From positions 95,917-159,916 of the forward strand of contig CAWFJP010000009.1 of NCBI GenBank assembly GCA_963816145.1: a stretch of DNA of 64,000 nt, read 5' to 3'. This DNA is from an uncultured delta proteobacterium (lineage in GTDB: Bacteria > Desulfobacterota > Binatia > UBA9968). Of this stretch, positions 15,811-30,912 are shown one piece after another. The translations under genes were made by a program, and so were the position numbers. Each line of letters starts with the position of its first letter. Within the stretch, counting starts at the first letter, position 1. The notes below the pieces were generated by a model. The model had not been told where the DNA came from. It did not search any database and saw only the letters and a program-made list of their open reading frames with translations.

Positions 15811-16962
15811 TTACTTCCCCCACAACTCTTTGGTCGCCAGCCTGGCCCCTTCGGCCATGGCTTCGAATTTGGCCCAGCAGATTTGCGGGCTGCCGACTCG
15901 CGGGCCCAAGCCGCAGTCGGTGCCAGCCATGATGTTTTCTTTGCCGACGATCTTGGCGTAGCGGATCAATCGGTCGGCGATTGCCTGCGGATGTTCGACG
16001 ATATCAGTGGCGTGGCCAACGACACCGGGGACCAGGACTTTGCCGGCAGGGAGTTTTACTTCCTCCCAGACGCGCCATTCGTGTTCGTGGCGCGGGTTAG
16101 CCGCTTCGATCGATATCGTGTTGGCGTTCACCTTCAGAATGATGTCGATGATGTCGCGCAGCGGGATGTCGTATTTGTGCGGGCCATGATAGCTGCCCCA
16201 GCAGGTGTGAAAGCGCACGCGGTCGGGAGGGACGTCACGCAAGCCGTGATTGAGCGCTTCGACGCGCAGTTCGGCATACTTGCGATACTCCGGCACCGAC
16301 ATGTTGGACATGAACTGCCAGCCGTCCGGCAGATCCGGGTCGTCGATTTGCAGCAAGAAGCCGGCGCCGGCGATGGCTTTGTATTCTTCGTGCATGGCAT
16401 CGGCGATGGCAACCAGATAGGCCTCGTCGCTCGGGTAATAGTCGTTTTTCATCCAGTGCTCGATGGTCCCTGGAGCGACGGCGGGAAGAAACGCTTCTTC
16501 GTACTTCTGATCTTGCAGACCGGCCTTGAAGTCGGCAATCTCCGCGGTCAACGATGCATGGCCGACGTATTTCAACGGCGCGTTACAAAATACCCGTTTG
16601 ACGTTGTCGCCACGATGGGATGTGCGCGCGTTGAAGTAATCGCTGAACTCGGTCAAATCCCTGGCGAAGATCGTTGAGGTGTGGTCGCTGGCTTTAACTT
16701 CGCGCTCGATGAAGCCGCTCAACCGGTCGCGGGCGTAGCGTGAGAAGTTGGATTTGCCCTGTTCGCCGTCGTTGATGATGTCAAGGCCGCAGGCGATTTG
16801 TTTCTTAACGATATCGGCGACGGCGCCGGTGACGCGTCTGCTAAACGCCTGCTCGTCTACGGGAGTCCCAGCGGTGCGCGCATTGTGCAGTTCTTTTAAG
16901 TCGGCCGGCAGCGGCAGGGCGCCGGCGTGGGTAGTTAAAATTCTGTCGGTACTGTATATCAT
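15811..16962 (-). CDS. Cobalamin-independent methionine synthase II family (single-barrel MetE-like Zn thiol-alkyltransferase)
   Basis: ILTTHAGALP, DGEQGK, LQIDDP, Zn ligands HTCWG and GTDCGLG, ANPRHEHEW. Confidence 0.88.
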   Translation of the reverse strand: MIYSTDRILTTHAGALPLPADLKELHNARTAGTPVDEQAFSRRVTGAVADIVKKQIACGLDIINDGEQGKSNFSRYARDRLSGFIEREVKASDHTSTIFARDLTEFSDYFNARTSHRGDNVKRVFCNAPLKYVGHASLTAEIADFKAGLQDQKYEEAFLPAVAPGTIEHWMKNDYYPSDEAYLVAIADAMHEEYKAIAGAGFLLQIDDPDLPDGWQFMSNMSVPEYRKYAELRVEALNHGLRDVPPDRVRFHTCWGSYHGPHKYDIPLRDIIDIILKVNANTISIEAANPRHEHEWRVWEEVKLPAGKVLVPGVVGHATDIVEHPQAIADRLIRYAKIVGKENIMAGTDCGLGPRVGSPQICWAKFEAMAEGARLATKELWGK

Positions 16963-17088: not shown

Positions 17089-18069
17089 TCATTTGAACGA
17101 TTCCCCGGGCTTTTGCGCAAAGCTGAAATCGAACACCCGCTCCGGCGGTGGCGGTTGGGCGAGTTTCGTGCGCTGGGCGGCGGTGACGATCATTTCGCGC
17201 TGGAGTTTTTCATCGACGATGCCCGAGGTCGACAAGTAACCCACCGCAGCCTCGTAAACGCGCTCGGCATACTTGTCGCGGTCTTTACCCATATCGAGAA
17301 ACGGTCCGCGAATGAACTCAATGCCATACTTTTTATCGTTGCGGAACAGTCGGAGTGCTTTCTGCGTGGCGCGGATGACCTTGGTCACCAGTTCCGGTTT
17401 CTCATTGATGACCGCTTTGGTGGTCGTAAGACCCCCCTGCACGGCGCGATAGACATCGGCGCCCGCGGCGATCTTGCGAAAACCCTCGTCGACGGCGATA
17501 AAATTCTGCGGAATTTGCAGCATGGTGGCTTCGATGGTGCCGGCTTTCAAAGCCACCCAGGTAATGTCGCTGGTGCCGAGGGGCAGCATCGTTACCTGAT
17601 CTAGCGGGATTTTGTTGGCGATCAAAATCTGCCGGGCAATGATCTCGGTCAGCGATCCTGGCGCGGAAATGCCGATTTTTTTGCCGCGCAGCTGCGCCAC
17701 GCCGGTAATGCTCGGCAGGGAGATCATATCAAAGGATGGCTTGTCGGAGAGCGCGAAGACGACCCGGACATCGGCGCCGTTTACAGCGGCACTGATGGCG
17801 GTACCGGTGGCGGTGCCGAAGTCGACACCGCCGGCGAGCATTGCCTGAACCGTTTGGATCGCCTTCATGAAAATAAACTCCGGCTCGAGGCCTTCCTCGC
17901 GGAAGAAGCCGCGGTCGCGGGCAATGATAAACGGCATATCGAGAGTGCTACGCGACACGTAGGCGATGCGGAAGGTCGAGAGCTTGGCGGATCTCTCCGC
18001 CGACCATAGCGTTCCCGGACATATGATGAGTACAGCTACCAAAGCGGTCAGAATCCGTGATCGTTTCAT
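17089..18069 (-). CDS. ABC substrate-binding protein, SsuA/NMT1/THI5-like
   Basis: Signal peptide, PFIIARDRGFFREEGL, LRGKKIGISAPGS. Confidence 0.85.
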   Translation of the reverse strand: MKRSRILTALVAVLIICPGTLWSAERSAKLSTFRIAYVSRSTLDMPFIIARDRGFFREEGLEPEFIFMKAIQTVQAMLAGGVDFGTATGTAISAAVNGADVRVVFALSDKPSFDMISLPSITGVAQLRGKKIGISAPGSLTEIIARQILIANKIPLDQVTMLPLGTSDITWVALKAGTIEATMLQIPQNFIAVDEGFRKIAAGADVYRAVQGGLTTTKAVINEKPELVTKVIRATQKALRLFRNDKKYGIEFIRGPFLDMGKDRDKYAERVYEAAVGYLSTSGIVDEKLQREMIVTAAQRTKLAQPPPPERVFDFSFAQKPGESFK

Positions 18070-18137
18070 GGCTAACCCCTCCATGGCTCAGCGAGGCTGG
18101 CGAACCTTTGCCTCCACACCCCGGACGCTAAACGATC

Positions 18138-18803
18138 TCAAGCATAGGTGTCGTATATCCCGTCGAACTTGTTGATCTTGAAGCGCACCATATTCTTCGC
18201 CGCGGCCCGAACCACTTCTTTGTCGCGATCGGTGATGGCGAACTTCGCCACGGTGTCGGCCGCCATGGCGGTGTGTTCCATATCGACTTTACCGTGAACC
18301 GTGAAGAATGTCCGCGCCCGAGCGTCGAGGCCATAGTGTTTCCCCAAGGCCTCATCGAATTCTTCGGAGTAGCGTTGCACCATGGTTTCATTGACCAGCG
18401 CGCCAACGCGGGTTTCTGCCGGCGCGCCGACGAGCATGCCGCGGACGATCGCTCCGGTATGGGCGACGCATTCAAAAATCATGATGCCGTCGTCGAAGTC
18501 GGCGTCGGTGAGCCCCATGGCCAAACCGAAGCGTCGCATGAGACCGGGATGAGATTGCTCCTCGGTGAACAGCTCGATGAACTGCTCGTACATGGCCTGG
18601 TTGTTGGCGTTGCGGACCATCGAAAAGGCCAGTCCTTTGTTGATCACGTGGTTCGACAAGTAGTGCTGGACGGCAAAGCCTTGCAGCCGTTTCTTCGACA
18701 ACTTGCCGGCGCGCAGCTCGGTGAAGAAGCGCGTGTTCATCAACTGATCCACGCCTGGGCGGATGATTTCCTTGAGAACCGATTCGACGAATGGGTTGGA
18801 CAT
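18138..18803 (-). CDS. Heme-oxygenase-like diiron protein (CADD/PqqC/TenA superfamily)
   Basis: LRAGKLS..L..FAVQHY, EEQSH, VNE and FFTVHGKVDMEH give an E/H/E/H/D/H ligand set; start after GAGGGG. Confidence 0.75.
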   Translation of the reverse strand: MSNPFVESVLKEIIRPGVDQLMNTRFFTELRAGKLSKKRLQGFAVQHYLSNHVINKGLAFSMVRNANNQAMYEQFIELFTEEQSHPGLMRRFGLAMGLTDADFDDGIMIFECVAHTGAIVRGMLVGAPAETRVGALVNETMVQRYSEEFDEALGKHYGLDARARTFFTVHGKVDMEHTAMAADTVAKFAITDRDKEVVRAAAKNMVRFKINKFDGIYDTYA

Positions 18804-18935
18804 AAGCGTTCCCCTCGTTAAATATTTTGTATGCAAACACTGGCAGAGGGAGGGATGAACTGTCAAGCCGGGCAGAATTGGTTTGACAGAGAACTGTGCG
18901 GCGACTAAACGTTAGAACGTTGTCTGGATGTGGAT

Positions 18936-19778
18936 ATGCCAATCGCAAAGTTGGCCGGCCTACAAATCTATTACGAAACGCAGGGTAGCGGCGAGCCCGT
19001 GCTGCTCGCGCCGGCGTCCTGGTGGCCGTCCGATACTTGGAACGTCGGTGTCGTGCCGTTTCTATCGAAGCGTTTCAAAACCATCGTTTTTGACTGCCGC
19101 GGCACCGGTCGAAGCAGCCAGCCGAAGGACGGTTACACGGTGGCGCAGTTCGCGCAGGATTGCCTTGGCTTGTTAGCGCACCTCGGCATATCGCGTTGCC
19201 ACGCCGTTGGCTTTGCGCTCGGTGGGCAGATGATGCAAGCCATGGCGATCGAGCGGCCCGATGTGGTTGCTACGCTGACCATCGCCGCATCGGGGGCAGG
19301 CACGAAGACGCTTGCAGGCGGGCAAAGAAGTTTGTCGCCGGACACGGAACGGGAAATTCGCGTGATCGGTTTCGAGCGCTACATTCGCAACTATATCGAG
19401 AACGACACCATGGCATTCAATCCGCAATTCTACCGCGGGCACGGCGAGGTAGTGGCGGCGTTGGCGGATGCGGTGTGGTCGGGCCAGAGCACCGTGGAAT
19501 TGTTTCGCCGCCATGAAGACGCGCGGCTTACTTGGGACACATTGGGAAAGGCGGTCGAAGTCAAAGTGCCGACGCTGATTCTATGCGGTGCGGACGATGA
19601 TGTGGCGCGCCGCGGCAGCACGCCGGTGGGCACGGCCAAGCGCCTCGCCGAACTGACAGCGGGCAGTGAATTGTTTCTAATTCCTAATACCAAGCATATG
19701 ACGTTCTGGGAGGGCAGCGGTGGGCTGATTGCGTTGGAAGATTTCTTCTTGCGTCATCCGATTGGCACTCAGCGATAA
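18936..19778 (+). CDS. Alpha/beta-hydrolase-fold protein lacking the Ser nucleophile (paralog 1)
   Basis: IYYETQGSGEPVLL, DCRGTGRS, elbow HAVGFALGG, PTLILCGADD, KHMTFW. Confidence 0.85.
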   Translation: MPIAKLAGLQIYYETQGSGEPVLLAPASWWPSDTWNVGVVPFLSKRFKTIVFDCRGTGRSSQPKDGYTVAQFAQDCLGLLAHLGISRCHAVGFALGGQMMQAMAIERPDVVATLTIAASGAGTKTLAGGQRSLSPDTEREIRVIGFERYIRNYIENDTMAFNPQFYRGHGEVVAALADAVWSGQSTVELFRRHEDARLTWDTLGKAVEVKVPTLILCGADDDVARRGSTPVGTAKRLAELTAGSELFLIPNTKHMTFWEGSGGLIALEDFFLRHPIGTQR

Positions 19779-19822
19779 CATTTCGTTTGAGATCGAAGTG
19801 GCTCTCGCGCTACAAACTAAGA

Positions 19823-19940
19823 AGGGCGACCGACCGGTCGCCCCTACGGCGGAATCGGATATTTAACCGCAGAGTACGCAAAGTACGCAAAATAAATCCG
19901 ACGATGAAATTCCGAGGTAGGGGCGTATGGCATACGCCCT
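19823..19940. repeat. Pair of GTAG-type REP hairpins in inverted orientation
   Basis: agggcgaccgaccggtcgcccctac (19823-19847) and gtaggggcgtatggcatacgccct (19917-19940). Confidence 0.7.
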
Positions 19941-20031
19941 GGTGGGTGGAGCAGCGGTCCAGTGGCTTGATGATTCACGATGGCACGACATGTTTAAAGT
20001 TTTGCGAAATGAACGACTGGTGAGGTGAACG

Positions 20032-20871
20032 ATGCCGAAGGCGGATTTAGGCGATGTGACGATTTACTACGAAAGCCAGGGTGCCGGTGACACGGTCCTG
20101 CTCTGCCCGCCGTCCTGGTGGCCTTGCGATACTTGGAATGTCGGTGTGGTGCCGTTTCTTGCCAAGAAGTTTCGCACGATCATTTTCGACTGCCGCGGCA
20201 CCGGTAATTCCAGCAAGCCCGACCATGGCTACACCATCGAGCAGTTCGCCAAGGATTGCGCCGGCCTGTTGGAGTTTCTAAAAATTTCGCGTTGCCACGC
20301 CGCTGGTTTCGCGCTTGGCGGTCAGATCGCCCAAGCTCTGGCGATTCAGCGCCCCGATCTGGTCGCGACCTTGACCATTGCCGCTGCCGGTGCGGGGGCG
20401 AAGGCGACCGACGGCGGGCCGCGGGTGGTGCGAAATACCGACGAAGAGGAGATTCGCGAGCATGGCTTCGAGAAGTTCATCCGCGGCCATATCGAGAACA
20501 CCCATATGGCGTTCGACGACAAGTTCTTTGGGGCGCATCGGGACGTCGTCAAAGCCCTGTCCGATGCGTTGTGGAAACGGCAAACCAGTCCGGAACAGCA
20601 TCGCTATCATTTCGAGGCCCGGCGCACTTGGGATACTTTGGGCAACGCGCCCAAGGTGACGGTTCCGGCCTTGATCCTGTGCGGCGCCGGCGACGATGTG
20701 AACCGCGGCGGCAGTACGCCGGTGGGCACGGCGCGCAAGTTAGCCGAATTGGTTCCAGGTTGCGAGCTTGCATTGGTGCCCAACGTCAAGCATATGACCT
20801 TTTGGGATGGCGATGGGGCGCTGCACGCGCTAGAAGAATTTTTGTTGCGCCATTCGATCGGTGGCATTTAG
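20032..20871 (+). CDS. Alpha/beta-hydrolase-fold protein lacking the Ser nucleophile (paralog 2)
   Basis: PPSWWP, DCRGTGNS, HAAGFALGG, LCGAGDD, KHMTFW. Confidence 0.85.
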   Translation: MPKADLGDVTIYYESQGAGDTVLLCPPSWWPCDTWNVGVVPFLAKKFRTIIFDCRGTGNSSKPDHGYTIEQFAKDCAGLLEFLKISRCHAAGFALGGQIAQALAIQRPDLVATLTIAAAGAGAKATDGGPRVVRNTDEEEIREHGFEKFIRGHIENTHMAFDDKFFGAHRDVVKALSDALWKRQTSPEQHRYHFEARRTWDTLGNAPKVTVPALILCGAGDDVNRGGSTPVGTARKLAELVPGCELALVPNVKHMTFWDGDGALHALEEFLLRHSIGGI

Positions 20872-20934
20872 TTCCGGAAACCGTTGAACCTTGAAACCTT
20901 GAACTTTGAACCAGCGCGATTCAGGAGATTCAAA

Positions 20935-21985
20935 ATGAAGCAGACTCCAGATTATTGGGAACGGTTGTTTTGCTATTGCGGTGATCTTGTTGTTGACCAG
21001 CGCTGCCGGAGCTCAGCAGGACAAAGCCGCAATCGATAAGCTATACAATGCGGCGAAGAAAGAAGGCAGGGTGGTGATCTGGGGACCCACCGACGGGATT
21101 GTTTATGAGAAGATGCAGGAATTGCTCGACAAACAGTATCCGGGTATCAAGATCGAGTCCTTTGAGAGCATTCCCGAACCGCTGGTGCAGCGCATCATCG
21201 CCGAGAACCAGGCGGGCAAGCCGGCGGCGGTCGATATTATCCAGTCCGGCTCGCTGCGCGCGCTGCGGCCGTTGATCGATCGCGACCTGTTGGCGTCCTA
21301 TCCAGGGTGGGAAAAAGAATTTGGTTTAGACGCTGTGTACGCCAACCACCGATTCGTCGGCGCCTATAATCTAGCTCTACCGATCGCTTACAACTCAAAA
21401 GCAGTCAGCGCCAAGGACGCGCCGAAAAGCTGGGAAGATCTCGCCGAGGCGAAGTGGAAGGGCAAGAAAATAATTATCGAGGCCCGGTTGGTGCCGTTCG
21501 CCATGCTCGGCACGGAGTGGGGTAAGGAAAAGGCGATGGATTTGGTCAAAAGAATTCTTGCCCAGCAGCCGCTCATCGTGCAAGGCGGCACGACCGTCGC
21601 CAATGCGCTCGCCGGCGGTCAAGTGTCGATCGCCGTCGGCACCTATGCTTTTACGATCGAGGGCCTGAAAAAGCGCGGCGCATCGGTGGACTGGATCGGA
21701 CCTTCGCCGCTACCCGTGCTGACCTCGGCAGAGGGCGTTCTCAAGACCGCGCCCCATCCTAACGCAGGGCGTTTCTTTGCCGGTTGGATGGGCACCGCCG
21801 AGGCGCAGAAGATTCGCTACTCGATTCGAGGACAATCCATGGAGGTCGGGAAAAACGCCATCGGCAACGTGGCCGATCGGATCAGGAGCGAGAAACCGGC
21901 GGTCATCTTGGAAACCGAAAAGACTTTTGCCGGTATTTTGGAGATTCAACGAGAAATGGGCAAGTTGCTCGGCGCGCTCAGGTGA
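20935..21985 (+). CDS. AfuA/ThiB-type ABC substrate-binding protein (probable frameshift in the signal peptide)
   Basis: AAKKEGRVVIW, APKSWEDL, APHPNAGRFF; the AGGAG-ATG at 20935 is one base out of frame with the ORF annotated from 20981. Confidence 0.8.
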
Positions 21986-22163
21986 AAACGGCGTGATGCT
22001 AACCCGAGGATATTACTCGTCGCTAGCGGGTTCTTCGTGGACCTAAACCGTGGCGCGGGATCTTGCATGGGGCCGAGATTCTTTGCCGGCGGCTCAGACT
22101 GATACAAGAACGAGGAAGCCCGCCGCGACCGAGCCCGGCGACCATTAATCAATCGTATCGTCA

Positions 22164-23942
22164 ATGAATTTTACGCCCACCACGATCGCCGAGAGCGTGA
22201 AGCTGAGACCTTGGTCTTCGGTTGGGAAATTATCGTTTCGCGCCCTCACCCTCGGCTTGACGATCGGTGTCGTTTCTTATCTCGTTCTTGTGCCGCTGTT
22301 CATGTTGCTCTACGCCAGCGTCAAGAGCACCGAAGACAAGCTGCCTTTCGAGTCGACGGTCATCACGCTATCCAATTACGCCGCCGTGCTAACCAGCCCG
22401 GCGACGCTGCCGATTTTTCTCAACACGATGCTATTCACCGTGGGCTCTTTGGCGGTGGGCCTGCCGCTGGCGATCTTATTGGCTTGGTTATGCGAACGCA
22501 CGGCGATTCCTGGGCGCAGCTGGATTGCCGCATTGATACTGGTGCCGATGACGATCCCTTCGTTGCTTTCGGCGATCGCCTGGATCCAGCTGCTCGATCC
22601 ACGCAATGGGCTTATCAACGTTGTGCTCCGCGGTGTGTTCGGCGTGGCGTCGGACATCGGCCCTTTCGATATCTATACGATTTACGGTATGTGTTTTGTG
22701 CAGGGGCTGCGGCTGGTGCCGTCGGCCTATCTGATGATCGCGGCGTCGTTTCGCGCCATGGACCCGTCCTTGGAAGAGCAGAGCGCCATGGCCGGACGCG
22801 GAGTCGCCCAGACCACCATGCGCGTGACCTTGCCGATCATGCGGCCGGCGCTGCTCGCCGCGCTGATTTATTTCATTATCGTTGTCATCGAATCCTTCGA
22901 TATTCCCGGCCTGCTCGGTTTTACCGCGCGCATTCGCGTGCTCAGCACGGCAATTTATTGGGCGACCCATTCCGAAGTCGGGCTTCCCGATTACGGGTTG
23001 GCGTCGGCGCTCGGAACGATTATTCTTTTTGCGGCGCTGCTGCTCATGTGGGGCTATCAGCGCTTGACCGCGCATCAGGAGCGCTTCGCCACGATCACCG
23101 GCAAGGGCTATCGACCGCGTCAAGTCGCTCTCGGTATCTGGTCGGCGCCGGCCGCTGGCTTCTGCACAGTCTATGTCTTGATCGCGGTGTTATTGCCGTT
23201 TCTCATGTTGCTGTGGACCAGCGTGCAGCCGTTTTATTCCACCCCATCGGTGGATTCGCTGGCGCGAGTGAGCTTTGAAGGCTACGCCAATATCTGGAAT
23301 GACGGCAGTGTCGTGCGCGCCATCTGGAATACCGCGCAGCTTGCGGTGATTACTTCGGTAGCGACTATCGTGCTCGCTTTGCTGGTCAGTTGGTTCGTGG
23401 TGCGGCGCCGGCGCGGCGACAACGGCGTGGCCAATTATTTAGCGACGGTATCGTTTTTGCCGCAGTGCGTGCCGAGCATCGTCATCGGCTTGGCGTTTAT
23501 CTTCGTCTATGTGCGGTTCCCGATCCCAATCTACGGCACGCTGTGGATCATTGCTTTGGCGATGACCACGCGCTATCTCGCTTACAGTTCGCGGGCGACC
23601 ACTTCGGCGCTCATGCAGGTTCACGGCGAGCTCGAAGAGGCGTCGCAAATGGCCGGCGCGCCGTGGACGCGCACCATCCGGCGGATCACCGTGCCGCTTT
23701 TGGCTCCGGCATTGATCAATGTGTTTTTCTGGGTCGCGGTGCACGCGATGCAGGAGCTGTCGATGGCCTTGATGCTTTACAATCCGGACACGGTGGTGGT
23801 GTCGACGATGATCTGGAGCATGTGGCAGAACGGCCGAACCGCCGACGCGGCGGTGCTCGGGGTCCTGCTCACCCTGCTATCCGCGGTGTTGCTGCTTGGC
23901 GGCTACCTGGTTTCGCGCTTGCGGCGGCAAGCGGATACCTGA
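22164..23942 (+). CDS. Fe3+/thiamine-type ABC permease with two BPD modules (FbpB/ThiP-like)
   Basis: 592 aa; two EAA-type loops, MDPSLEEQSAMAG and ELEEASQMAGA. Confidence 0.9.
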   Translation: MNFTPTTIAESVKLRPWSSVGKLSFRALTLGLTIGVVSYLVLVPLFMLLYASVKSTEDKLPFESTVITLSNYAAVLTSPATLPIFLNTMLFTVGSLAVGLPLAILLAWLCERTAIPGRSWIAALILVPMTIPSLLSAIAWIQLLDPRNGLINVVLRGVFGVASDIGPFDIYTIYGMCFVQGLRLVPSAYLMIAASFRAMDPSLEEQSAMAGRGVAQTTMRVTLPIMRPALLAALIYFIIVVIESFDIPGLLGFTARIRVLSTAIYWATHSEVGLPDYGLASALGTIILFAALLLMWGYQRLTAHQERFATITGKGYRPRQVALGIWSAPAAGFCTVYVLIAVLLPFLMLLWTSVQPFYSTPSVDSLARVSFEGYANIWNDGSVVRAIWNTAQLAVITSVATIVLALLVSWFVVRRRRGDNGVANYLATVSFLPQCVPSIVIGLAFIFVYVRFPIPIYGTLWIIALAMTTRYLAYSSRATTSALMQVHGELEEASQMAGAPWTRTIRRITVPLLAPALINVFFWVAVHAMQELSMALMLYNPDTVVVSTMIWSMWQNGRTADAAVLGVLLTLLSAVLLLGGYLVSRLRRQADT

Positions 23943-24054
23943 CGTGATTCGATCGAGTGGGACTGGGGAAATCGCGTTCGTAATCGTGGACGTGTTGGCG
24001 TTGAACATGCTCATGTGACAGGAACTTGATTCCCAACTGAAGCTAGGATCGATT

Positions 24055-25149
24055 GTGATAATCGTTAAAGACTTGGTCAAATCCTTCCCCGGCGCGAAGG
24101 GTGAGGTGCGCGCCCTCAACGGCGTCTCTTTCGCAGTTGGCAAGGGCGAATTGTTTACGCTCCTCGGACCAAGCGGCTGCGGTAAAACGACGACGCTACG
24201 CTGCATCGCCGGGCTCGAACAACCGGTAGCCGGCGAGATCGTAATCAACGACCGCGCCGTGTATCGCGCCGCTGACGGCACCTTTGTGCCGCCGGAGCGA
24301 CGCGAGATCGGCATGGTGTTCCAATCCTATGCGATCTGGCCGCATATGACCGTGTTTAAAAACGTCGCTTATCCGCTGGCGGGCGGCAACGGCCGCGATG
24401 ACGTCAACCAGCGCGTCGGCGCTGTACTCGAACGGCTGAGCCTGGGAAGTTTAGCCGACCGGCTGGCGCCCAATCTGAGCGGCGGCCAACAACAGCGCGT
24501 CGCCCTGGCGCGGGCGCTCGTGGCGCAGCCCCAGGTGCTGCTGCTCGACGAACCGCTTAGCAACCTCGACGCCAAATTGCGCGAGCAGATGCGCTTCGAA
24601 TTGAAGTCGTTGCAAGAGTCCTTCGGCATTACCACGGTGTACGTAACCCACGATCAGGAAGAAGCGCTGGCATTGTCCGATCGCATCGGGCTGATGCATG
24701 AGGGCGCGCTCTTGGAAGTCGGCAGCCCGAGCGACCTCTATATCCGTCCGGCACACCGGATCACCGCCGACTTTCTTGGCACGGCGAATTTTATCGCCGC
24801 TCAGGTCGAAAAGCCGGGAAGCGAGGCTTGGGATGAAATGTTGATTGCGACGCCGATGGGCAAATTCGCCGCGCGGCGCAGTGTCGAATGGCAGCCAGGC
24901 ATGGCGGCGGAGCTGTTTTTTCGACCGGAGAGCATCGAGCTGTTGGATGGCAATAGGTCCGGCGGGGAGGCGAATTGCGGTTTAGCCCAGGTTGAGCGCG
25001 TGACTTTTCTCGGCAACTCGGCGGATGTGATATTGCGCAGCGGCGAAGTGCGCATTCGCTTGCGCGCCCATCCGGCGCGGATTCCCAGCGTCGGTACGAA
25101 GGTGAGCTTTTCAGTTCCGGCGGAGTCGTGCATCGTGTTTCCGGCGTGA
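24055..25149 (+). CDS. ABC ATP-binding protein (FbpC/PotA-like, with TOBE domain)
   Basis: GPSGCGKTT, LSGGQQQRVALARAL, LLLDEPLSNLD, VTHDQEEA. Confidence 0.93.
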   Translation: MIIVKDLVKSFPGAKGEVRALNGVSFAVGKGELFTLLGPSGCGKTTTLRCIAGLEQPVAGEIVINDRAVYRAADGTFVPPERREIGMVFQSYAIWPHMTVFKNVAYPLAGGNGRDDVNQRVGAVLERLSLGSLADRLAPNLSGGQQQRVALARALVAQPQVLLLDEPLSNLDAKLREQMRFELKSLQESFGITTVYVTHDQEEALALSDRIGLMHEGALLEVGSPSDLYIRPAHRITADFLGTANFIAAQVEKPGSEAWDEMLIATPMGKFAARRSVEWQPGMAAELFFRPESIELLDGNRSGGEANCGLAQVERVTFLGNSADVILRSGEVRIRLRAHPARIPSVGTKVSFSVPAESCIVFPA

Positions 25150-25206
25150 GATGTAAATCTTTTTCCTCGCCCAGTCCGATGGAATCGGGAAGCGCGAGTG
25201 ATCATA

Positions 25207-25229
25207 TAGGGGCGACCGGCGGTCGCCCT
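25207..25229. repeat. GTAG-type REP hairpin
   Basis: taggggcgaccggcggtcgccct, near-identical to the reverse complement of 19823-19847. Confidence 0.65.
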
Positions 25230-25273
25230 CTTTGGGCTTGTTTGGACTAGGAGATCTTGATGAGGAATGGATC

Positions 25274-26221
25274 ATGAACAATGCAGCTGTTTCAATAAAC
25301 AACCATCAGGCCAATCGAATCGAATGGCAGCTTTACACAAAGATGTTGACCACCCGCGTTTTCGAAGAAGCGCTGGTGCGTTGGGAACATGAGGGGAAAC
25401 ACTCGGCGCAGACCTTTCCGAGCAAGGGACAAGAAGCGATCGCCATCGGCACTTGCCTGGCCTTGGAAAGAGGCGACGACGTGCTGCCATCGTTTCGCAC
25501 CCGCGGCGCGATGATCGCCATGGGAATCAGTCTCGATGAGCAGCTCCGCGAGTTTCTACACACGCCGCTAGCTGCCGGCGATTCGCGCGACGCGCCGCAT
25601 CATGCGTCATGGCCGGAACGCGGCGTGCTGCCCGGTTCGACCATGATCGGCGGCCATCTGGCGATGGCCGCGGGTGTCGCGCTGGCCAATCAATGCGATC
25701 GCGCCAATAACGTCAGCGTGGCCTTCTTCGGTGATGGCACTTTGGGTTCCGGCGACCTGCATGAGACCATGCATATCGCCGGCGCCTGGAATCTGCCATT
25801 GATCCTGGTCTGCGAGAACAACGGTTGGGAGATGGCGACGCCCTGGCCCAAGGTGCGCAAGCAGCGTTCGTTAATCCCCTATGCCGCGCCTTTCGGCCTC
25901 GCGACCCGTCAGGTCGACGGCAACGATGCTTTGGACGTCTATCACGCGGCGCGCTGGGCGCGTTCGACGGCATTGAAGGGCCAGCCGGCGTTTCTCGATT
26001 GTCTGACTTTTCGCGTCGGCTTGTATAGCTCGCATTTCGGCGAAGTTCGGACCGGCATCGAGAACGATTTAGCCGACGCGGCCAAACGCGACCCGTTGAA
26101 GCGCTTAGGCGATTGGCTGATCGACAACGGGCTGGCGACGGCAGGTGCACTCGAGCAGTTGCAGCACGATGAAGAGCAGCTGGTTGAAGCGGCATTCAAT
26201 ATCGTTAGGGGTGAAGGGTAA
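25274..26221 (+). CDS. ThDP-dependent dehydrogenase E1 alpha-like subunit
   Basis: GQEAIA and the ThDP motif FFGDG...VCENN; VDGND and RDPL. Confidence 0.85.
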   Translation: MNNAAVSINNHQANRIEWQLYTKMLTTRVFEEALVRWEHEGKHSAQTFPSKGQEAIAIGTCLALERGDDVLPSFRTRGAMIAMGISLDEQLREFLHTPLAAGDSRDAPHHASWPERGVLPGSTMIGGHLAMAAGVALANQCDRANNVSVAFFGDGTLGSGDLHETMHIAGAWNLPLILVCENNGWEMATPWPKVRKQRSLIPYAAPFGLATRQVDGNDALDVYHAARWARSTALKGQPAFLDCLTFRVGLYSSHFGEVRTGIENDLADAAKRDPLKRLGDWLIDNGLATAGALEQLQHDEEQLVEAAFNIVRGEG

Positions 26222-26291
26222 AGGGTCAGGCGTCCTGAATCCGGAATCGCCTAACCCCCTGACACCTTACCCCTTACGGGTTCATGGAGCG

Positions 26292-27251
26292 ATGAAGATG
26301 TCCACAATGAATTACCGCGATGCGGTCGGCAAAGCACTACAAGATTCGATGCGCGAAGATAGCCGGCTGATCGTCATCGGCCAGAATCTCGCGGCTCATG
26401 CTCTGAAGCCGCTGGCTGAGACATATGGATTGGATCGGGTGCGCGATTCGGCGATAAGCGAGAGCGCTATGGTCGGCATGGCGGTGGGCGCGGCGATGAA
26501 GGGAATGAAGGCGGTGGTGATGATCGCCTACGCCGACATCGCCTCGGTTTGCCATATGGCGATCGTCCAGAGCGCGGCGAAGCTGCACTATTTAACCAAT
26601 GGCCGCTTGCGCTGTCCGATCATTATTCGTTTGCCGATCGCGCGCTTTCGCGGTCATGGCCCGGAGGGCAACGAGGTCGGCGCGTCGTGGTTCTATAACG
26701 TGCCAGATTTGAATATCGCCATGCCCGGTTCGGCAAGTGAAGCGTACTGGAGCTTTCGCGACGCTCTGACCCGGCCGACGCCGACGTTGTTTTTCGAGGA
26801 TCGCTCGATCCATTTGCGCAGCGGCGCGGTGGCGGAAACCAACCCTGGCGGCAAAGCGCAAATCACCCGCACTGGCGACAAGTTGACGATCGTCGCCGCC
26901 GGCCGCACCGCGGCGCTGGCCGAAGACGCCGCCGACGAATTGGCGAAACAAGGCGAGCGTGACGCGGTCGAGGTGGTCAGCTTGGGATTTATCAAGCCGT
27001 TGGATAGCGACACGGTGCTCAAGGCCGCGAGCAAGACCGGTCGCGTCTTGATCATCCAGGACGAACCCGAATGGGCCGGCTATGCGCCCTATGTGCGTTT
27101 CGTGCTCGACCGCTTGCCGGCGGGTAAACTCGCGCTCGCGCCCCGTTTGTTGGTCGGCGTCGATCAGTATTTGCCCTATTGGGATGAGCGGCCGTTCGTG
27201 CCGTCGCTGGATAGCGTCGTCGCTGCGGCGAAGGATTTACTAAAACAATAA
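26292..27251 (+). CDS. ThDP-dependent dehydrogenase E1 beta-like subunit
   Basis: RVRDSAISESAMVGMAVGAA, PTLFFE, IKPLD, KTGRVLI. Confidence 0.85.
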   Translation: MKMSTMNYRDAVGKALQDSMREDSRLIVIGQNLAAHALKPLAETYGLDRVRDSAISESAMVGMAVGAAMKGMKAVVMIAYADIASVCHMAIVQSAAKLHYLTNGRLRCPIIIRLPIARFRGHGPEGNEVGASWFYNVPDLNIAMPGSASEAYWSFRDALTRPTPTLFFEDRSIHLRSGAVAETNPGGKAQITRTGDKLTIVAAGRTAALAEDAADELAKQGERDAVEVVSLGFIKPLDSDTVLKAASKTGRVLIIQDEPEWAGYAPYVRFVLDRLPAGKLALAPRLLVGVDQYLPYWDERPFVPSLDSVVAAAKDLLKQ

Positions 27252-27271
27252 CGACGACTGCGGGTGCAAAG

Positions 27272-28291
27272 ATGTCGATGAAAATTCAATCCCTCGCACT
27301 GGTCTTTCTTTTGACAAAGGTATCTCTGGCGTTGGGTCAGGTTGCCAATCCGGATCTCCTCGCCCAAGCCAAAAAGGAAGGGCGCGTCACCTGGTACACG
27401 ACCGTGTCGATCCCGGAGAGCAAGCTATTTATCGACATGTTCGAGAGGCAATATCCGTTCATCAAGGTCGATTTGTTGCGGTCAGGGGCGGGGGCGTTGA
27501 TCAATCGCGTCACCAGCGAATACGCGGCACGGAATTATTCCGCCGATGTGCTGCAAGGATTGTCGAGCCGCGGCGGGCTCAGCTTACTCAAAAAAAGAGA
27601 AATCCTTGGCCGCTATGTATCACCGGAGTTCAAAAATTTTCCTGCCGAGTTTAGCGACAAAGCGGGCTATTGGGGGTCAACCTTTCAAAACACCTTCGTG
27701 CTTGCCTACAACAAGCGCAACGTCAAACCGGACGACGTGCCGAAAATCTACGAAGATCTGTTGAAACCGATATGGAAAGGCCGGCAAATCATCAACGACA
27801 CGGATAATTTTGAATGGTTCGACGGCTTGTTGCGTTTCTGGGGAAAGGACAAAGGGCTCGCCTACTTCCGCCGCCTGGCGGCGCAGGATCAGATATTTCA
27901 GCGCGGCGCGCGCGGGCGCATCCAACTGGTCGCAGCAGGCGAAGCGCCTTTGGCGATCGGCTACGGACCTCACGCCCAAAGCTTCGTCAACCAAGGCGCG
28001 CCCATCGAGTGGGTTGCGCTTGAACCGGTGGTTGTGATCATCAGCACGACCAGCATCGCGGCGCGCGCTCCCCATCCGGCCGCCGCGCGGCTGTTCTACG
28101 ATTTTCTGTTTTCAAGAAGCGCGCAACTGAAACTGCGGGAACTCAGCCGAATTCCGACGCGCAGCGATGTCGACGCCGATCCGCCACGTCTTAACAAAGG
28201 CTTCAAGAAGGTCGTGCAGGATTTGGAGAATGAAAATATGGCCGAGTCGATCAAATTGTTTCAGCAGGTATTCGGTTTGGCGCCGGGCTGA
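27272..28291 (+). CDS. AfuA/ThiB-type ABC substrate-binding protein
   Basis: AKKEGRVTWYT, LAYNK, PKIYEDLLKPIWKG, APHPAAARLF. Confidence 0.87.
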   Translation: MSMKIQSLALVFLLTKVSLALGQVANPDLLAQAKKEGRVTWYTTVSIPESKLFIDMFERQYPFIKVDLLRSGAGALINRVTSEYAARNYSADVLQGLSSRGGLSLLKKREILGRYVSPEFKNFPAEFSDKAGYWGSTFQNTFVLAYNKRNVKPDDVPKIYEDLLKPIWKGRQIINDTDNFEWFDGLLRFWGKDKGLAYFRRLAAQDQIFQRGARGRIQLVAAGEAPLAIGYGPHAQSFVNQGAPIEWVALEPVVVIISTTSIAARAPHPAAARLFYDFLFSRSAQLKLRELSRIPTRSDVDADPPRLNKGFKKVVQDLENENMAESIKLFQQVFGLAPG

Positions 28292-28376
28292 TTCCCAATG
28301 GGTTCCAACCGTTCCAATCGTTCCAGAGGTTCCAATCGTCGAGTTCCCGGGCTACCAGAGGTTTGAGAGTCGATTC

Positions 28377-29216
28377 ATGCCAACTGTCAAGCTGAACGGT
28401 GTCGAGATTTACTATGAAACTCAGGGGCGCGGCGAACCGGTTCTTCTGGTGCCGCCCAATTGGTGGCCTTGCGCGACTTGGAAGGTTACCGTGGTGCCGG
28501 TGTTGTCCAAGCGATTTCGCACGATCATTTACGACGGCCGCGGTACCGGCCGGAGCGCGCAGCCAAAGGATGGCTACAATGTCCGGCAGTTCGCGTTGGA
28601 CGGCATCGAGTTGTTGCAGCAGTTGGGCGTTAGTCGTTGTCACCTCGTTGGATTTGCCATCGGCGGCCAGATCGTTCAGGCGATGGCGATCGAGCGGCCG
28701 GAGTTGGTCGCGAGTCTGACGATTTCCACCACCGGACCGGGAGTGCGCCGGCTCGATGGCACGCTGCGCGAAGTGGGACCGGAAGCGCTGCATGAGATCA
28801 ACAAGATCGGCTTCGAGAAATACATCCTCGAGCATATCGATAACGATCATATGGCCTACAACCCCGAGTTTTATACCAGCCATCGTCGACAGGCCGCAGA
28901 GTTGGCGCGGGCGCTTTGGTCGGGGCAAAGCACGGTGGAGCAGTATCGCATTCACGAACTGGCGCGGCTGACTTGGGACACGTTGGCGGAAGCGCCGAAG
29001 GTAAACGTGCCGACCTTGGTTCTTTGCGGCGCAGATGACGGCGTCGAGCGGCGCGGCAGCACCCCGGAGGCGACGGCGCGGCGACTGGCGCCGTTGATTC
29101 CCGGCGCTGAATTGGCTTTGATCCCCGGCGTCAGGCATATGACGTTTTGGGATGGCGATGGAGCGTTGAAAGCGTTGCAGGAGTTCTTAGAGCGTCATGC
29201 GATTGGCGCTAAATAG
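28377..29216 (+). CDS. Alpha/beta-hydrolase-fold protein lacking the Ser nucleophile (paralog 3)
   Basis: PPNWWP, DGRGTGRS, HLVGFAIGG, LCGADD, RHMTFW. Confidence 0.85.
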   Translation: MPTVKLNGVEIYYETQGRGEPVLLVPPNWWPCATWKVTVVPVLSKRFRTIIYDGRGTGRSAQPKDGYNVRQFALDGIELLQQLGVSRCHLVGFAIGGQIVQAMAIERPELVASLTISTTGPGVRRLDGTLREVGPEALHEINKIGFEKYILEHIDNDHMAYNPEFYTSHRRQAAELARALWSGQSTVEQYRIHELARLTWDTLAEAPKVNVPTLVLCGADDGVERRGSTPEATARRLAPLIPGAELALIPGVRHMTFWDGDGALKALQEFLERHAIGAK

Positions 29217-29230
29217 ATTGGCAGACTTGT

Positions 29231-29311: not shown

Positions 29312-29319
29312 GATGCTCC

Positions 29320-30171
29320 CTAAGCGAATTTCGCGGTTACCACCATTGCCAGATTGCCTTTCCCATCCACCGCCCAGAGAGTGGCGTCCCGGCCGTCGGC
29401 GCTTGGATTGCCATACAGAGTGAACTTGCCGTCGCTGTCATAGACCGAGCGCAGGTTTTGAAAGTCGAAGTTGGTCATGCGCTTGGCCGGCAATTCTCTG
29501 CGGCACATTTCCATTAACAGCTGGGAGATCAGCGAGCTCTGCACCACCAAGCCCGGCAGCTTTTCCACCTTGGTCACGTAATCGCGGTCGTAGTGAATGC
29601 GGTGGCTATTGAAGCGGATCGCCGAGAAGCGGAACAGCAGCGGCGGATTGGGCTCGACGGTCTGGTTCCATTTAGCCGCGCTAGGAATGGCGGGTGAAGT
29701 TTTGGGCGCTGCGTCGGCTCTGGCTTCGCTCAACATGACCGTGTCGCGTTCTTCGACGACGCATAGGCCGCGCGCGGTGGACATGCTGTTGCGCTCGACG
29801 ATGGTCACTTGTTCGCCGCCGTCGTCGATGCGCAGATCGGCGATCTCGGTCTTGCGCGTGACGTCATCACCAATTCGTAAGGGTTCATGAAACGACACGC
29901 GCGTGCCGCCTATTCTTCGTCGCGGTAGCGGGATCGCCGGCATGAAGCCGCCGCCCGCTGCTTGTCCGTCGGTGCGCATTTTGTCCGGCCGGTGCGAGGC
30001 CGGAAACAGTCCGCCGTACCAGCCGGGCGGGATCGCCGCGCCTTTTTCCAGCGGCGGATTCTCCAGACCCAACGTCGCGGCGAACTTTACCATTGTCGAT
30101 GCGGTCACGACATCCGTCGCGCTCTCGCTCTTGCCAATATAGCTTTTGAAGCTCTCAAGCGATTCAGCCAT
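29320..30171 (-). CDS. Double hot-dog acyl-CoA hydratase (HTD2/mesaconyl-C4-CoA hydratase-like)
   Basis: LPRRRIGG and LLFRFSAIRFNSHRIHYDRDY..E..PGLVV. Confidence 0.82.
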   Translation of the reverse strand: MAESLESFKSYIGKSESATDVVTASTMVKFAATLGLENPPLEKGAAIPPGWYGGLFPASHRPDKMRTDGQAAGGGFMPAIPLPRRRIGGTRVSFHEPLRIGDDVTRKTEIADLRIDDGGEQVTIVERNSMSTARGLCVVEERDTVMLSEARADAAPKTSPAIPSAAKWNQTVEPNPPLLFRFSAIRFNSHRIHYDRDYVTKVEKLPGLVVQSSLISQLLMEMCRRELPAKRMTNFDFQNLRSVYDSDGKFTLYGNPSADGRDATLWAVDGKGNLAMVVTAKFA

Positions 30172-30878: not shown

Positions 30879-30912
30879 ATGAATACTTACACGACTCCCA
30901 CCCGCGGCTGGA

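What the first reader, a model, noticed from the sequence alone, without database searches (positions are those of the whole stretch)
18936..29216. Three alpha/beta-hydrolase paralogs with Ala in place of the catalytic Ser
Seen: the nucleophile elbow reads GFALGG, GFALGG and GFAIGG instead of GxSxG. The usual HG oxyanion segment is PxxWWP. The acid and His positions are retained (LCGAxD, HMTFW), with a shared insertion RxGSTP. Three diverged copies share the change, so it is not a sequencing error. Knowledge: some ABH-fold enzymes, such as the cofactor-free dioxygenases HOD/QDO, rely on a His/Asp dyad rather than a nucleophile. Inference: a non-hydrolytic subfamily (dioxygenase, lyase, isomerase or ligand binder).
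Basis: partly seen in the sequence, partly recalled or inferred. Interest (0 to 1): 0.72.

Follow-up and report, generated by a model that had tools for sequence, protein, structure and literature searches.

The report
Serine-less alpha/beta-hydrolase paralogs, function unknown
Three related genes in one gene cluster of an uncultured soil bacterium encode hydrolase-like proteins that have permanently swapped the usual reactive serine for alanine while keeping the partner histidine and aspartate, so they probably carry out a non-hydrolytic reaction that nobody has yet identified.

Summary
[quoted passage not shown] Each has Ala94 at the nucleophile elbow, W29-W30-P31 where HG normally sits, Asp221, His254 and an RxGSTP insertion.

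This is not an error or decay:
- Homologues searched: 120 of 120 and 111 of 113 carry Ala.
- The WW/Ala proteins form one clade (support 100/99) in Binatia and Chloroflexota MAGs.
- dN/dS is 0.06-0.12.
- Asp and His stay nearly invariant down to about 31% identity.
- No new Ser, Cys or Asp became invariant. The clade-specific invariant residues are hydrophobic, plus Arg225.

The family has only automatic names. It is not close to the known serine-less ABH enzymes (AqdC-type dioxygenases, tomato MKS1 decarboxylase).

Gene context is conserved within the genus: an Fe3+/thiamine-type ABC importer, E2-less E1 alpha/beta genes that lack two canonical His, a haem-oxygenase-like di-iron protein, a MetE-like protein and an itaconyl-CoA-hydratase-like protein. 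No partner is universal across the clade.

Best reading (about 0.55): cytoplasmic His/Asp general-base enzymes (lyase, isomerase, decarboxylase or cofactor-free oxygenase) acting on an imported anionic metabolite. The substrate is unknown. The scan had noted this same stretch once before.

The parts
18936..19778 (+). ABH1: alpha/beta-hydrolase-fold protein, 280 aa, with W29-W30-P31, Ala94 (GFALGG), Asp221, RRGSTP and His254
   Evidence: Orthologue group of 11 rows, support 100/98. dN/dS 0.06-0.10.
20032..20871 (+). ABH2: paralog, 279 aa, same signature (GFALGG, RGGSTP). It is the most widely kept copy.
   Evidence: AF2 model pLDDT 95.8. Orthologue group of 22 rows, support 100/100. Present where ABH1, ABH3 and the orthologous E1 beta were not found.
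28377..29216 (+). ABH3: paralog, 279 aa (GFAIGG, RRGSTP), last gene of the + strand cluster
   Evidence: Orthologue group of 4 rows, support 100/99. dN/dS 0.10-0.12.
20981..21985 (+). SBPa: periplasmic solute-binding protein (SBP_bac_1/8/6/11, Fe3+/thiamine/2-AEP type)
   Evidence: Syntenic in Binatia loci.
22164..23942 (+). Fused two-domain ABC permease (592 aa, two BPD_transp_1 stretches)
24055..25149 (+). ABC ATPase with a TOBE domain
   Evidence: A 45-50% identical ATPase lies next to the ABH in another family of the order and in L072.
25274..26221 (+). E1 alpha-like ThDP protein. GDG...NN is kept. Tyr stands where 1w85 alpha has His271.
26295..27251 (+). E1 beta-like protein. GPEGNE stands where canonical E1 beta has HHSQS. 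No E2 gene is in the cluster.
27272..28291 (+). SBPb: second solute-binding protein (SBP_bac_6). Closest solved structure is a ferric-ion-binding protein, 7f6e series, E 2e-20.
18138..18866 (-). Haem-oxygenase-like di-iron protein (PF14518), weakly CADD/4-aminobenzoate-synthase-like, divergent from ABH1
17089..18084 (-). NMT1/THI5-like solute-binding protein
15811..16962 (-). MetE-C-terminal-like ('core MetE') protein. HTC, IE and DCGL stretches are present, read by eye as the Zn ligands.
29320..30171 (-). Double-hotdog MaoC-like hydratase, closest to itaconyl-CoA hydratase 8khg (E 1e-37), convergent on ABH3
19822..19845 (.). 10-bp-stem palindromic hairpin in the ABH1-ABH2 spacer
   Evidence: This is a pattern match only.

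Best explanation
ABH1, ABH2 and ABH3 are cytoplasmic enzymes of the alpha/beta-hydrolase fold that no longer use covalent (acyl-enzyme) catalysis.

Proposed mechanism (inferred): the retained His254-Asp221 pair acts as a general base. It removes a proton from a small anionic, enolisable substrate held in a pocket that has been made hydrophobic. The pocket changes are W29/W30 in place of the HG oxyanion loop, Ala94, Met255 and Trp181. The pocket has also gained a new Arg225 next to the cap residues His193 and Arg197.

The outcome would be a C-H abstraction reaction, not ester hydrolysis. Candidate reactions:
- beta-elimination (lyase);
- 1,3-proton shift (isomerase);
- decarboxylation;
- reaction of the carbanion with O2 (cofactor-free oxygenase), with lower odds.

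In this genus the substrate or its precursor is probably brought in by the adjacent Fe3+/thiamine-type ABC importer. It is probably also processed by the atypical, E2-less ThDP E1 alpha/beta proteins of the same cluster.

Shown: the fold, the residue pattern, its age, and the selection acting on it. Inferred: the base mechanism, the reaction class and the link to neighbouring genes. The substrate is unknown.
For: Fold and residue positions:
- Pfam Abhydrolase_1, E 1e-16 to 1e-19.
- AF2 model pLDDT 95.8, with Ala94 at the strand-turn-helix elbow.
- Best fold matches are canonical esterases 8v16/6eb3, TM 0.85-0.90.
- The triad alignment is A94/S94, D221/D217, H254/H245.

Stability of the change:
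- 120 of 120 and 111 of 113 homologues have Ala.
- All 21 of the 41 cluster representatives at 50% identity or more that cover the elbow have Ala; the other 20 do not cover it.
- The WW/Ala proteins form one clade of 56 rows (55 Ala, 1 Thr), support 100/99, sister to Ser-bearing proteins.

Selection:
- dN/dS is 0.06-0.12 in 12 orthologue pairs, with dS near saturation.
- His254 is kept in 56 of 56 and Asp221 in 55 of 56, although identity falls to about 31%.

Remodelling consistent with loss of the oxyanion hole and exclusion of water:
- The clade-specific invariant residues are W29, W30, P31, A94, I150, L176, A179, W181, R225, P230 and M255.
- None is a candidate nucleophile.

Precedents for serine-less ABH enzymes:
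- AqdC has a natural Ala and uses a His-Asp general base; the HOD S101A change stabilises O2 (PMC10548524, passages).
- ShMKS1 has an Ala-His-Asn triad and is a 3-keto-acid decarboxylase (review PMC11644291, passages).

Gene context:
- The cluster order is conserved in Binatia loci.
- A related ABC ATPase lies next to the ABH in a second family of the order and in L072.
- E1 beta/alpha genes are convergent on distant Ala-ABHs in three Chloroflexota-type metagenome loci.

Transcription (weak): short contigs from 3 distinct soil RNA libraries match ABH1 and ABH2 exactly or with one mismatch. X15 and X16 look like the same data. DNA carry-over is not excluded.
Against: - No activity, ligand or coordinates were examined. 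The His-Asp geometry and the pocket were not measured because the model's coordinates are not readable here.
- No gene partner is universal. The orthologous E1 beta was not found in 3 of 5 genomes that keep ABH2; their best hits were 32-36% identical.
- The Chloroflexota E1s are only about 30% identical to the window's and keep the canonical His residues. Loci L058 and L065 have no E1.
- CoA-transferase III adjacency (L035, L058) is weak evidence, because the genome has 16 such genes.
- The MetE-like neighbour in the second family is only 21% identical to the window's.
- Conservation of His and Asp would also fit a ligand-binding or scaffold role.
- Direct attack by His-activated water on an activated ester cannot be excluded from sequence.
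- Synteny within one genus is shared ancestry, not independent evidence.
Confidence: 0.55

Rival explanations
1. The proteins are non-catalytic ligand-binding or scaffold subunits (pseudoenzymes). They would use the old active-site pocket to bind a metabolite, or dock onto the E1 alpha/beta or the ABC transporter.
For: - The nucleophile is lost and the HG Gly is replaced by Trp.
- Three paralogs sit in one cluster, which could form hetero-oligomers.
- The neighbouring E1 alpha/beta has also lost two canonical His residues.
- Non-catalytic ABH-fold proteins are known in other lineages (recalled, not checked here).
Against: - His254 is kept in 56 of 56 and Asp221 in 55 of 56 clade members down to about 31% identity. 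In my recollection, catalytically dead ABH proteins usually lose these residues too.
- ABH2 persists in genomes where the orthologous E1 beta was not found.
- No fused forms were found, though the tool calls that weak evidence.
- Natural Ala-elbow ABHs that are true enzymes exist.
Confidence: 0.2
2. The proteins are still hydrolases that work without an acyl-enzyme. His254 would activate water for direct attack on an activated ester, for example an enol-lactone, as suggested by the similarity to PcaD.
For: - The best NCBIfam match is 3-oxoadipate enol-lactonase, TIGR02427, E 3e-25 to 2e-30.
- The closest folds are esterases and the 2xua enol-lactonase.
- Dienelactone-hydrolase and Amidohydro_2 genes lie beside the Chloroflexota members.
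Against: - Scores of 89-106 bits are far below the 255.85-bit cut-off for that family.
- The Gly of the oxyanion-loop HG motif is replaced by Trp, and the pocket became more hydrophobic. That argues against stabilising a tetrahedral oxyanion and against admitting water.
- A Ser to Ala change has been kept for this long in a lineage whose sister proteins keep Ser.
Confidence: 0.12
3. The proteins are ordinary covalent hydrolases that recruit another residue as the nucleophile.
For: None was found.
Against: - No Ser, Cys or Asp is invariant in the WW/Ala clade while absent from the Ser relatives.
- Ser60 and Asp75 are shared with canonical relatives.
- Cys217 and Ser228 are not invariant across the clade.
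- Structure coordinates were not inspected.
Confidence: 0.04

Closest known systems
Est1/Ade1 metagenomic esterase (PDB 6eb3, 8v16) and family V / PcaD-like ABH esterases
   Same: Closest sequence match (E 2e-30, about 31% identity) and closest fold match (TM 0.85-0.90). Same length and cap. Asp and His are at the same positions.
   Different: Est1 has Ser94 and a Gly-containing oxyanion loop. It lacks the 5-residue RxGS insertion. The window proteins have Ala94 and W29-W30-P31.
Cofactor-free 2,4-dioxygenases HOD, QDO and AqdC (ABH fold)
   Same: The nucleophile is dispensable. AqdC naturally has Ala at the elbow. A His-Asp pair acts as general base. A Trp backbone amide lines the oxyanion hole, and a hydrophobic elbow favours O2 (PMC10548524).
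   Different: The HOD acid (D126) lies about 25 residues after the elbow, whereas here it is at the canonical post-beta7 site (D221). There is no specific sequence or fold proximity: none appears among the 60 and 50 listed hits. There is no quinolone-related gene context.
Tomato methylketone synthase 1 (ShMKS1), an ABH-fold 3-keto-acid decarboxylase
   Same: A natural Ala in place of the Ser nucleophile, with His kept, and a non-hydrolytic reaction (PMC11644291).
   Different: The ShMKS1 triad is Ala-His-Asn, whereas here it is Ala-His-Asp. ShMKS1 belongs to the land-plant MES family. No direct comparison was made here because no sequence was at hand.
AcoC-type E2 of the acetoin dehydrogenase system (lipoyl domain fused to an ABH domain, NF011457)
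   Same: An ABH-fold protein encoded with E1 alpha/beta genes.
   Different: There is no lipoyl domain. Scores are 39-44 bits against a 307-bit cut-off. No true member was found in this genome. The residue at the AcoC elbow could not be checked, and the architecture is recalled.
MenD/MenH pair (ThDP enzyme followed by an ABH-fold lyase)
   Same: An ABH-fold enzyme that abstracts a proton (2,5-elimination) downstream of a ThDP enzyme (abstracts of PMC3630204 and PMC3097144, seen in the listing).
   Different: MenH keeps and needs the Ser-His-Asp triad. The match to the MenH model is 35-41 bits against a 208.55-bit cut-off. MenD is not an E1 alpha/beta (recalled).

Membership tests
alpha/beta-hydrolase fold superfamily (Pfam Abhydrolase_1, PF00561) | Eight-strand beta sheet with a nucleophile elbow between beta5 and helix C; score above the Pfam gathering score | tested here: met
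   59-71 bits against a 25.8-bit cut-off. AF2 pLDDT 95.8 with the canonical strand and helix order. Foldseek TM 0.85-0.90 to ABH esterases.
Serine hydrolases of the ABH fold | Ser (or Cys or Asp) nucleophile in G-x-Nu-x-G at the elbow | tested here: not met
   Ala94 in all three proteins. It aligns to Ser94 of Est1.
Serine hydrolases of the ABH fold | Acid and His of the triad after beta7 and beta8 | tested here: met
   Asp221 and His254 align to D217 and H245 of Est1. Their positions after strands 213-218 and 245-249 fit.
Serine hydrolases of the ABH fold | HG (or HGxP) oxyanion-loop motif after beta3 | tested here: not met
   The loop reads S/N-W-W-P. The Gly position is Trp in 56 of 56 clade members, against Gly or Ala in 22 of 25 Ser relatives.
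3-oxoadipate enol-lactonase PcaD (TIGR02427) | Score above the curated equivalog cut-off | tested here: not met
   88.9, 105.7 and 99.5 bits against 255.85.
HOD/QDO/AqdC cofactor-free dioxygenases | His-Asp dyad with the Asp on the loop after beta6 (HOD D126, about 25 residues after the elbow) | tested here: not met
   No conserved Asp lies near residues 115-125 of the clade; Gly122 is the conserved residue there. The conserved acid is D221. The HOD residue numbers come from PMC10548524.
HOD/QDO/AqdC cofactor-free dioxygenases | Specific sequence or fold relatedness | tested here: inconclusive
   None appears among the 60 best of 178 sequence hits or the 50 listed fold hits. No direct pairwise comparison was possible.
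HOD/QDO/AqdC cofactor-free dioxygenases | O2-dependent, cofactor-free cleavage of a 3-hydroxy-4-quinolone | not testable with these tools
   Needs an enzyme assay.
ShMKS1-type ABH decarboxylases | Ala-His-Asn triad; membership of the plant MES family | not tested
   Ala and His are present but the acid is Asp, not Asn. No MKS1 sequence was available for comparison. The triad is taken from review PMC11644291.
AcoC-type ABH E2 (NF011457) | N-terminal lipoyl domain plus ABH domain; score above the cut-off | tested here: not met
   39-44 bits against 307, matching only the ABH part of the profile. The proteins start directly with the ABH fold.
Epoxide hydrolase / haloalkane dehalogenase | Asp nucleophile at the elbow | tested here: not met
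   The elbow residue is Ala94. Only weak matches to the N-terminal half, E 1e-8 to 1e-10.

The most novel reading that the evidence does not exclude
The WW/Ala clade is a new class of ABH-fold enzyme. It would use the His-Asp dyad inside an aromatic, water-excluding cage (W29, W30, W181, F93, F257, W258, M255) with Arg anchors.

Its reaction would be one of two kinds. It could be a cofactor-free oxygenation of an enediolate or acyloin. Or it could be a beta-elimination on an imported charged metabolite, for example an onium or phosph(on)ate compound.

It would work together with a ThDP E1 alpha/beta that has itself lost the residues aligned to the canonical alpha and beta His. Together with the di-iron oxidase and the core-MetE-like protein, this would form an undescribed catabolic pathway typical of soil Binatia.
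Probability: 0.15. Interest if true: 0.75.

Novelty: new variant of a known kind. Interest (0 to 1): 0.5.

Why it matters
Enzymes of the alpha/beta-hydrolase fold that have given up the nucleophile are rare and mechanistically instructive. AqdC/HOD and MKS1 are the few studied cases.

Here is a third, unrelated and much larger natural lineage. More than 1,000 sequences match at E 1e-10 or better. It occurs in two soil phyla that are largely uncultured, and automatic pipelines label it an esterase or enol-lactonase. Those labels are almost certainly wrong.

The clear signature (WWP ... GF-A-xG ... D ... RxGSTP ... HMxFW) lets the proteins be recognised and re-annotated. Three paralogs lie beside an importer with two binding proteins, which gives a practical route to the substrate: screen ligands on the binding proteins. 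The neighbouring E1 alpha/beta, which lacks its two canonical His, is a second unexplained enzyme variant in the same cluster.

Tried and rejected
- Complex prediction (E1 alpha + E1 beta + ABH2) never ran. The queue was full, and the tool was declared unavailable. Physical association is therefore untested.
- Search for fused, longer forms of the clade: none at E 1e-20 or better. The tool itself calls this weak evidence.
- Riboswitch or other RNA family in 15000-31500: only one chance-level miRNA match, E 0.55. The idea of a thiamine-salvage operon (TenA-like, THI5-like and ThiB-like families together) gained no support.
- AcoC-like E2 idea: no true NF011457 member in the genome or in the control genomes over the cut-off. 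The ABHs match only weakly.
- ESM Atlas: returned only unnamed Binatota ABH clusters.
- Phylum-wide genome sample: 0 of 200 other genomes had a match at E 1e-60 or better. The family is concentrated in the window's genus (14 of 18) and one other family of the order (5 of 7; 0 of 5 in a third).
- CoA-transferase III adjacency (L035, L058; 48% identical) was discounted because G000 has 16 paralogs at up to 50% identity.
- Four representatives looked like 'WW + Ser' in pairwise BLAST. In the multiple alignment they have other residues at positions 29-30, so this was an alignment artefact.
- Literature: five searches found no paper on a bacterial ABH family with this signature or context. Subscription journals are not covered.
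- Parts of the cluster without RNA contig cover are not interpreted.

Full report
**What is there**

The window comes from a 7.8-Mb, 31-contig genome. Its relatives in public records are labelled Candidatus Binatia or 'uncultured delta proteobacterium' MAGs.

Between 18.9 and 29.2 kb the + strand carries, in order: ABH1, ABH2, a solute-binding protein (SBPa), a fused two-domain ABC permease, an ABC ATPase with a TOBE domain, E1 alpha, E1 beta, a second solute-binding protein (SBPb), and ABH3.

Three genes are divergent from ABH1: a haem-oxygenase-like di-iron protein (PF14518), an NMT1/THI5-like binding protein and a MetE-C-terminal-like protein. Convergent on ABH3 is a double-hotdog hydratase closest to itaconyl-CoA hydratase (8khg, E 1e-37).

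**The observation**

Taking the ATG starts (18936, 20032, 28377), the three ABH proteins are 280, 279 and 279 aa and fully co-linear. Each has:
- W29-W30-P31;
- G92-F-A94-L/I-G-G;
- L-C-G-A-x-D221;
- R225-x-G-S-T-P;
- H254-M-T-F-W.

They are 58-63% identical to each other. Pfam places them in Abhydrolase_1 at 59-71 bits.

The closest solved protein is the metagenomic esterase Est1 (6eb3, 8v16; E 2e-30). In the printed alignment, Ala94, Asp221 and His254 fall on Est1 residues 94, 217 and 245. The Ade1 preprint gives these as the catalytic triad S94, D217, H245 (10.1101/2020.12.16.421545, passages read). Its numbering and conserved motifs match Est1, but the PDB code does not occur in its main text.

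An AlphaFold2 model of ABH2, built on a 58-row alignment, has mean pLDDT 95.8. It puts Ala94 exactly between strand 88-93 and helix 95-106. Asp221 lies after strand 213-218, His254 after strand 245-249, and W29/W30 after strand 20-25. Foldseek finds canonical esterases first: 8v16 and 6eb3 at TM 0.85-0.90, then the 2xua enol-lactonase. I could not read the model's coordinates, so distances were not measured.

**Not an error, and not decay**
- A word-indexed search gave 1184 proteins at E 1e-10 or better among 4404 candidates. In the 120 best (82-94% identical), all 120 have Ala at the elbow, all 120 have PPSWWP, all 120 have RGGSTP, and 119 have HMTFW.
- An exhaustive HMMER search of 1.84 billion cluster representatives gave 46 hits at E 1e-30 or better. 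Of the 150 best, 41 are 50% identical or more; 21 of these cover the elbow and all 21 have Ala. Of the 109 below 50%, 98 have Ser, 9 Ala, 1 Thr and 1 a gap.
- Full-length representatives drop steeply from 66% to 38% identity.
- A second profile search with the distant Ala members found 117 proteins at E 1e-40 or better. The named ones are from Chloroflexota or 'Deltaproteobacteria' MAGs. Of 113 new ones, 101 read W-W-A-D-R-H-M at positions 29, 30, 94, 221, 225, 254 and 255. In total 111 have Ala; in the other 2 the position is not covered.
- The genome itself has only these three copies. The next ten ABH paralogs examined (33% identity or less) all have Ser at the elbow: nine read GHSMG and one GVSVG.

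**Phylogeny**

I built a careful IQ-TREE tree of 82 proteins. Rows were chosen as follows:
- the three window proteins;
- every full-length stop-free tblastn hit in loci L004-L014, L025-L049 and L058-L072;
- 21 chosen representatives.

Partial or stop-containing hits were dropped.

The tree puts all proteins with WW at 29-30 in one clade of 56 rows (55 Ala, 1 Thr), with support 100/99. This clade is sister to a Ser-bearing group that includes P0145 and P0153.

Within it, a Binatia subclade (40 rows, 100/100) splits into ABH2 (22 rows, 100/100), ABH1 (11 rows, 100/98) and ABH3 (4 rows, 100/99) groups. A second subclade of 16 rows holds the Chloroflexota-type proteins. One further Ala protein (P0227) lies outside, so the change happened at least twice. 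The root is a midpoint root, so direction is inferred from the Ser state of all outgroups.

**Selection and residue pattern**

dN/dS against orthologues in five loci is 0.06-0.12 for all three paralogs. This covers 12 pairs, and dS of 0.8-2.1 is near saturation.

Across the 56 clade members, His254 is invariant and Asp221 is present in 55. Four further positions are invariant or nearly so and are shared with the Ser relatives: H193, R197, R55 and D75.

Eleven residues are invariant in the clade but uncommon in the 25 Ser relatives: W29, W30, P31, A94, I150, L176, A179, W181, R225, P230 and M255. None is a possible nucleophile.

The Gly of the HG oxyanion motif has become Trp. So the pocket lost both the nucleophile and, probably, the canonical oxyanion hole. 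It became more hydrophobic and gained an Arg in the loop after the acid.

**Gene context**

In 25 genome loci of close relatives, the order is largely conserved where the contig is long enough: MetE-like, NMT1 binding protein, di-iron protein <> ABH1, ABH2, SBPa, permease, ATPase, E1 alpha, E1 beta, SBPb, ABH3 < MaoC. This is one lineage, so it counts as shared ancestry.

Informative variation:
- Three genomes keep ABH2, one of them also ABH1. In these, ABH3 and the orthologous E1 beta were not found; the best E1 beta hits are 32-36% identical. The importer/E1 block is missing from their loci.
- In the window's genus, 14 of 18 other species have at least one copy.
- In a second family of the order, 5 of 7 species have a single copy. 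In a third family, 0 of 5 do.
- Elsewhere in the phylum sample, 0 of 200 do.
- In the second family and in metagenome locus L072, the arrangement is lytic transglycosylase, then ABH, then an ABC ATPase 45-50% identical to the window's. In L079 and L072 a binding protein and a two-domain permease lie within a few kb, and L079 and L081 carry a MetE-like gene. The MetE-like gene of L079 is only 21% identical to the window's.
- In three related Chloroflexota-type metagenome loci (L060-L062), the Ala-ABH follows an Amidohydro_2 gene. In L062 and L061 the Amidohydro_2 stop lies on the ABH start. The ABH is convergent on a two-gene E1 alpha/E1 beta unit without an E2.
- Other distant members sit in different surroundings. 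L058 has EutA-like, cupin, a Ser-type sister ABH and a CoA-transferase. L065 has Rieske and FAD ring-hydroxylating genes and extradiol-type genes.

So the importer is the most recurrent neighbour, an E1 pair the second, and none is universal.

**The E1 pair is itself unusual**

It keeps the GDG...NN ThDP motif and the conserved Glu of the beta subunit. In the alignment to G. stearothermophilus PDH E1 (1w85), alpha-His271 is Tyr (FRVGLYSSH). In the alignment to T. thermophilus E1 beta (1um9), the stretch corresponding to the canonical HHSQS reads GPEGNE or GPMGNE.

This holds in the window and all 9 (alpha) and 8 (beta) aligned Binatia orthologues. The Chloroflexota E1s keep RGHY and HHSQS.

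That these two His act in reductive acylation of lipoamide is my recollection, not a tool result. If so, the Binatia E1 is not a lipoamide-dependent dehydrogenase, which fits the absence of an E2.

**Mechanism**

What is shown:
- an intact ABH fold;
- a retained and selected His/Asp pair;
- no nucleophile;
- a remodelled hydrophobic pocket with Arg residues;
- a cytoplasmic location, judged by eye from N-termini without signal peptides.

What is inferred: His254, polarised by Asp221, acts as a general base on an anionic, enolisable small molecule. The outcome would be elimination, isomerisation, decarboxylation or oxygenation rather than hydrolysis.

Two precedents show this is workable chemistry on this fold:
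- The cofactor-free dioxygenases use the His-Asp pair to deprotonate the substrate. AqdC naturally has Ala, and the HOD S101A change lengthens O2 residence at the former oxyanion hole, which is lined by the amide of a Trp (PMC10548524, passages).
- Tomato MKS1 has an Ala-His-Asn triad and decarboxylates 3-keto acids (review PMC11644291, passages).

The window proteins are members of neither family. Their acid is at the canonical site, not the HOD site. None of those enzymes appears among the listed sequence or fold hits. MKS1 is a plant MES protein.

I put about 0.55 on a catalytic general-base role. Within that, roughly a third goes to an O2-dependent reaction. The remaining odds are 0.2 on a non-catalytic binder or scaffold, 0.12 on nucleophile-free hydrolysis and 0.04 on an alternative nucleophile.

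**Transcription**

Logan contigs of soil metatranscriptome libraries lie on ABH1 at 19252-19402, 19410-19560, 19526-19705 and 19648-19832, with 0-1 differences. They lie on ABH2 at 20320-20470 with 1 difference. Depth is 2-4 in three distinct data sets; X15 and X16 give identical figures. This is a weak hint only, because DNA in RNA libraries cannot be excluded.

**Is it known?**

All source names for the proteins are automatic: 'alpha/beta fold hydrolase', 'pimeloyl-ACP methyl ester carboxylesterase' and '3-oxoadipate enol-lactonase'. NCBIfam scores are far below every curated cut-off. Five full-text searches found no paper on such a bacterial family. Subscription literature and ESTHER could not be searched.

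**Verdict**

This is a real, conserved, uncharacterised nucleophile-less branch of the ABH fold, and so a new variant of a known kind. Interest is moderate (0.5). It would rise if the chemistry, or the link to the His-less E1 pair, turns out to be new.

Noticed in passing
window 25274-27251: The E1 alpha/beta pair keeps the ThDP-binding motif. It has Tyr and Glu where alignments place the two canonical active-site His of PDH-type E1 (1w85 alpha-His271; the HSQ stretch of E1 beta). This holds in all Binatia orthologues aligned. No E2 gene is nearby. The E1 pairs next to distant Ala-ABHs in Chloroflexota-type loci keep both His.
   Followed up: partly
window 19822-19845: A perfect 10-bp-stem palindromic hairpin lies in the 254-bp spacer between ABH1 and ABH2. 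It could be an attenuator, a processing site or a repeat element.
   Followed up: no
window 619-18084: Unusual density of orphan periplasmic binding-protein genes: at least eight NMT1/THI5-like, two TctC-like and one SBP_bac_11. The same stretch holds a fused DctM-type permease and Amidohydro_2 and DUF6282 genes.
   Followed up: no
window 54000-64000: GC content drops from about 0.58 to about 0.50. The ORFs there are short, apart from a 984-aa Cache-HAMP-GAF histidine kinase. This may be a foreign or differently composed segment.
   Followed up: no
window 52681-54189 (-): A 502-aa ORF with coding-like GC3 (0.71) has no Pfam family at E 1e-5 or better.
   Followed up: no
L058:9968-14462: An Ala-type ABH and a Ser-type sister ABH (GFSIGG, no WW) lie 3 kb apart in one metagenome locus. 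An EutA-like gene and a cupin lie between them, and a family III CoA-transferase lies next to the Ser-type copy. This is a possible snapshot of the two states side by side.
   Followed up: partly
L049 (G205:C4:2459-3278) and L046: An extra ABH copy in L049 is split by a TGA. The ABH orthologues in L046 carry in-frame stops. These may be real decay or assembly errors.
   Followed up: no
L079:16971-17846 (-): An MbnB/TglH/ChrH-type RiPP-modifying enzyme gene lies about 6 kb from the ABH in a closed genome of a related family.
   Followed up: no
window 15811-16962 (-): The MetE-C-terminal-only protein retains stretches (HTC, IE, DCGL) that look like the Zn-ligand motif. The genome has about seven such paralogs. 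It resembles the 'core' folate-independent methionine synthases (PMC7857596, listing abstract only).
   Followed up: partly
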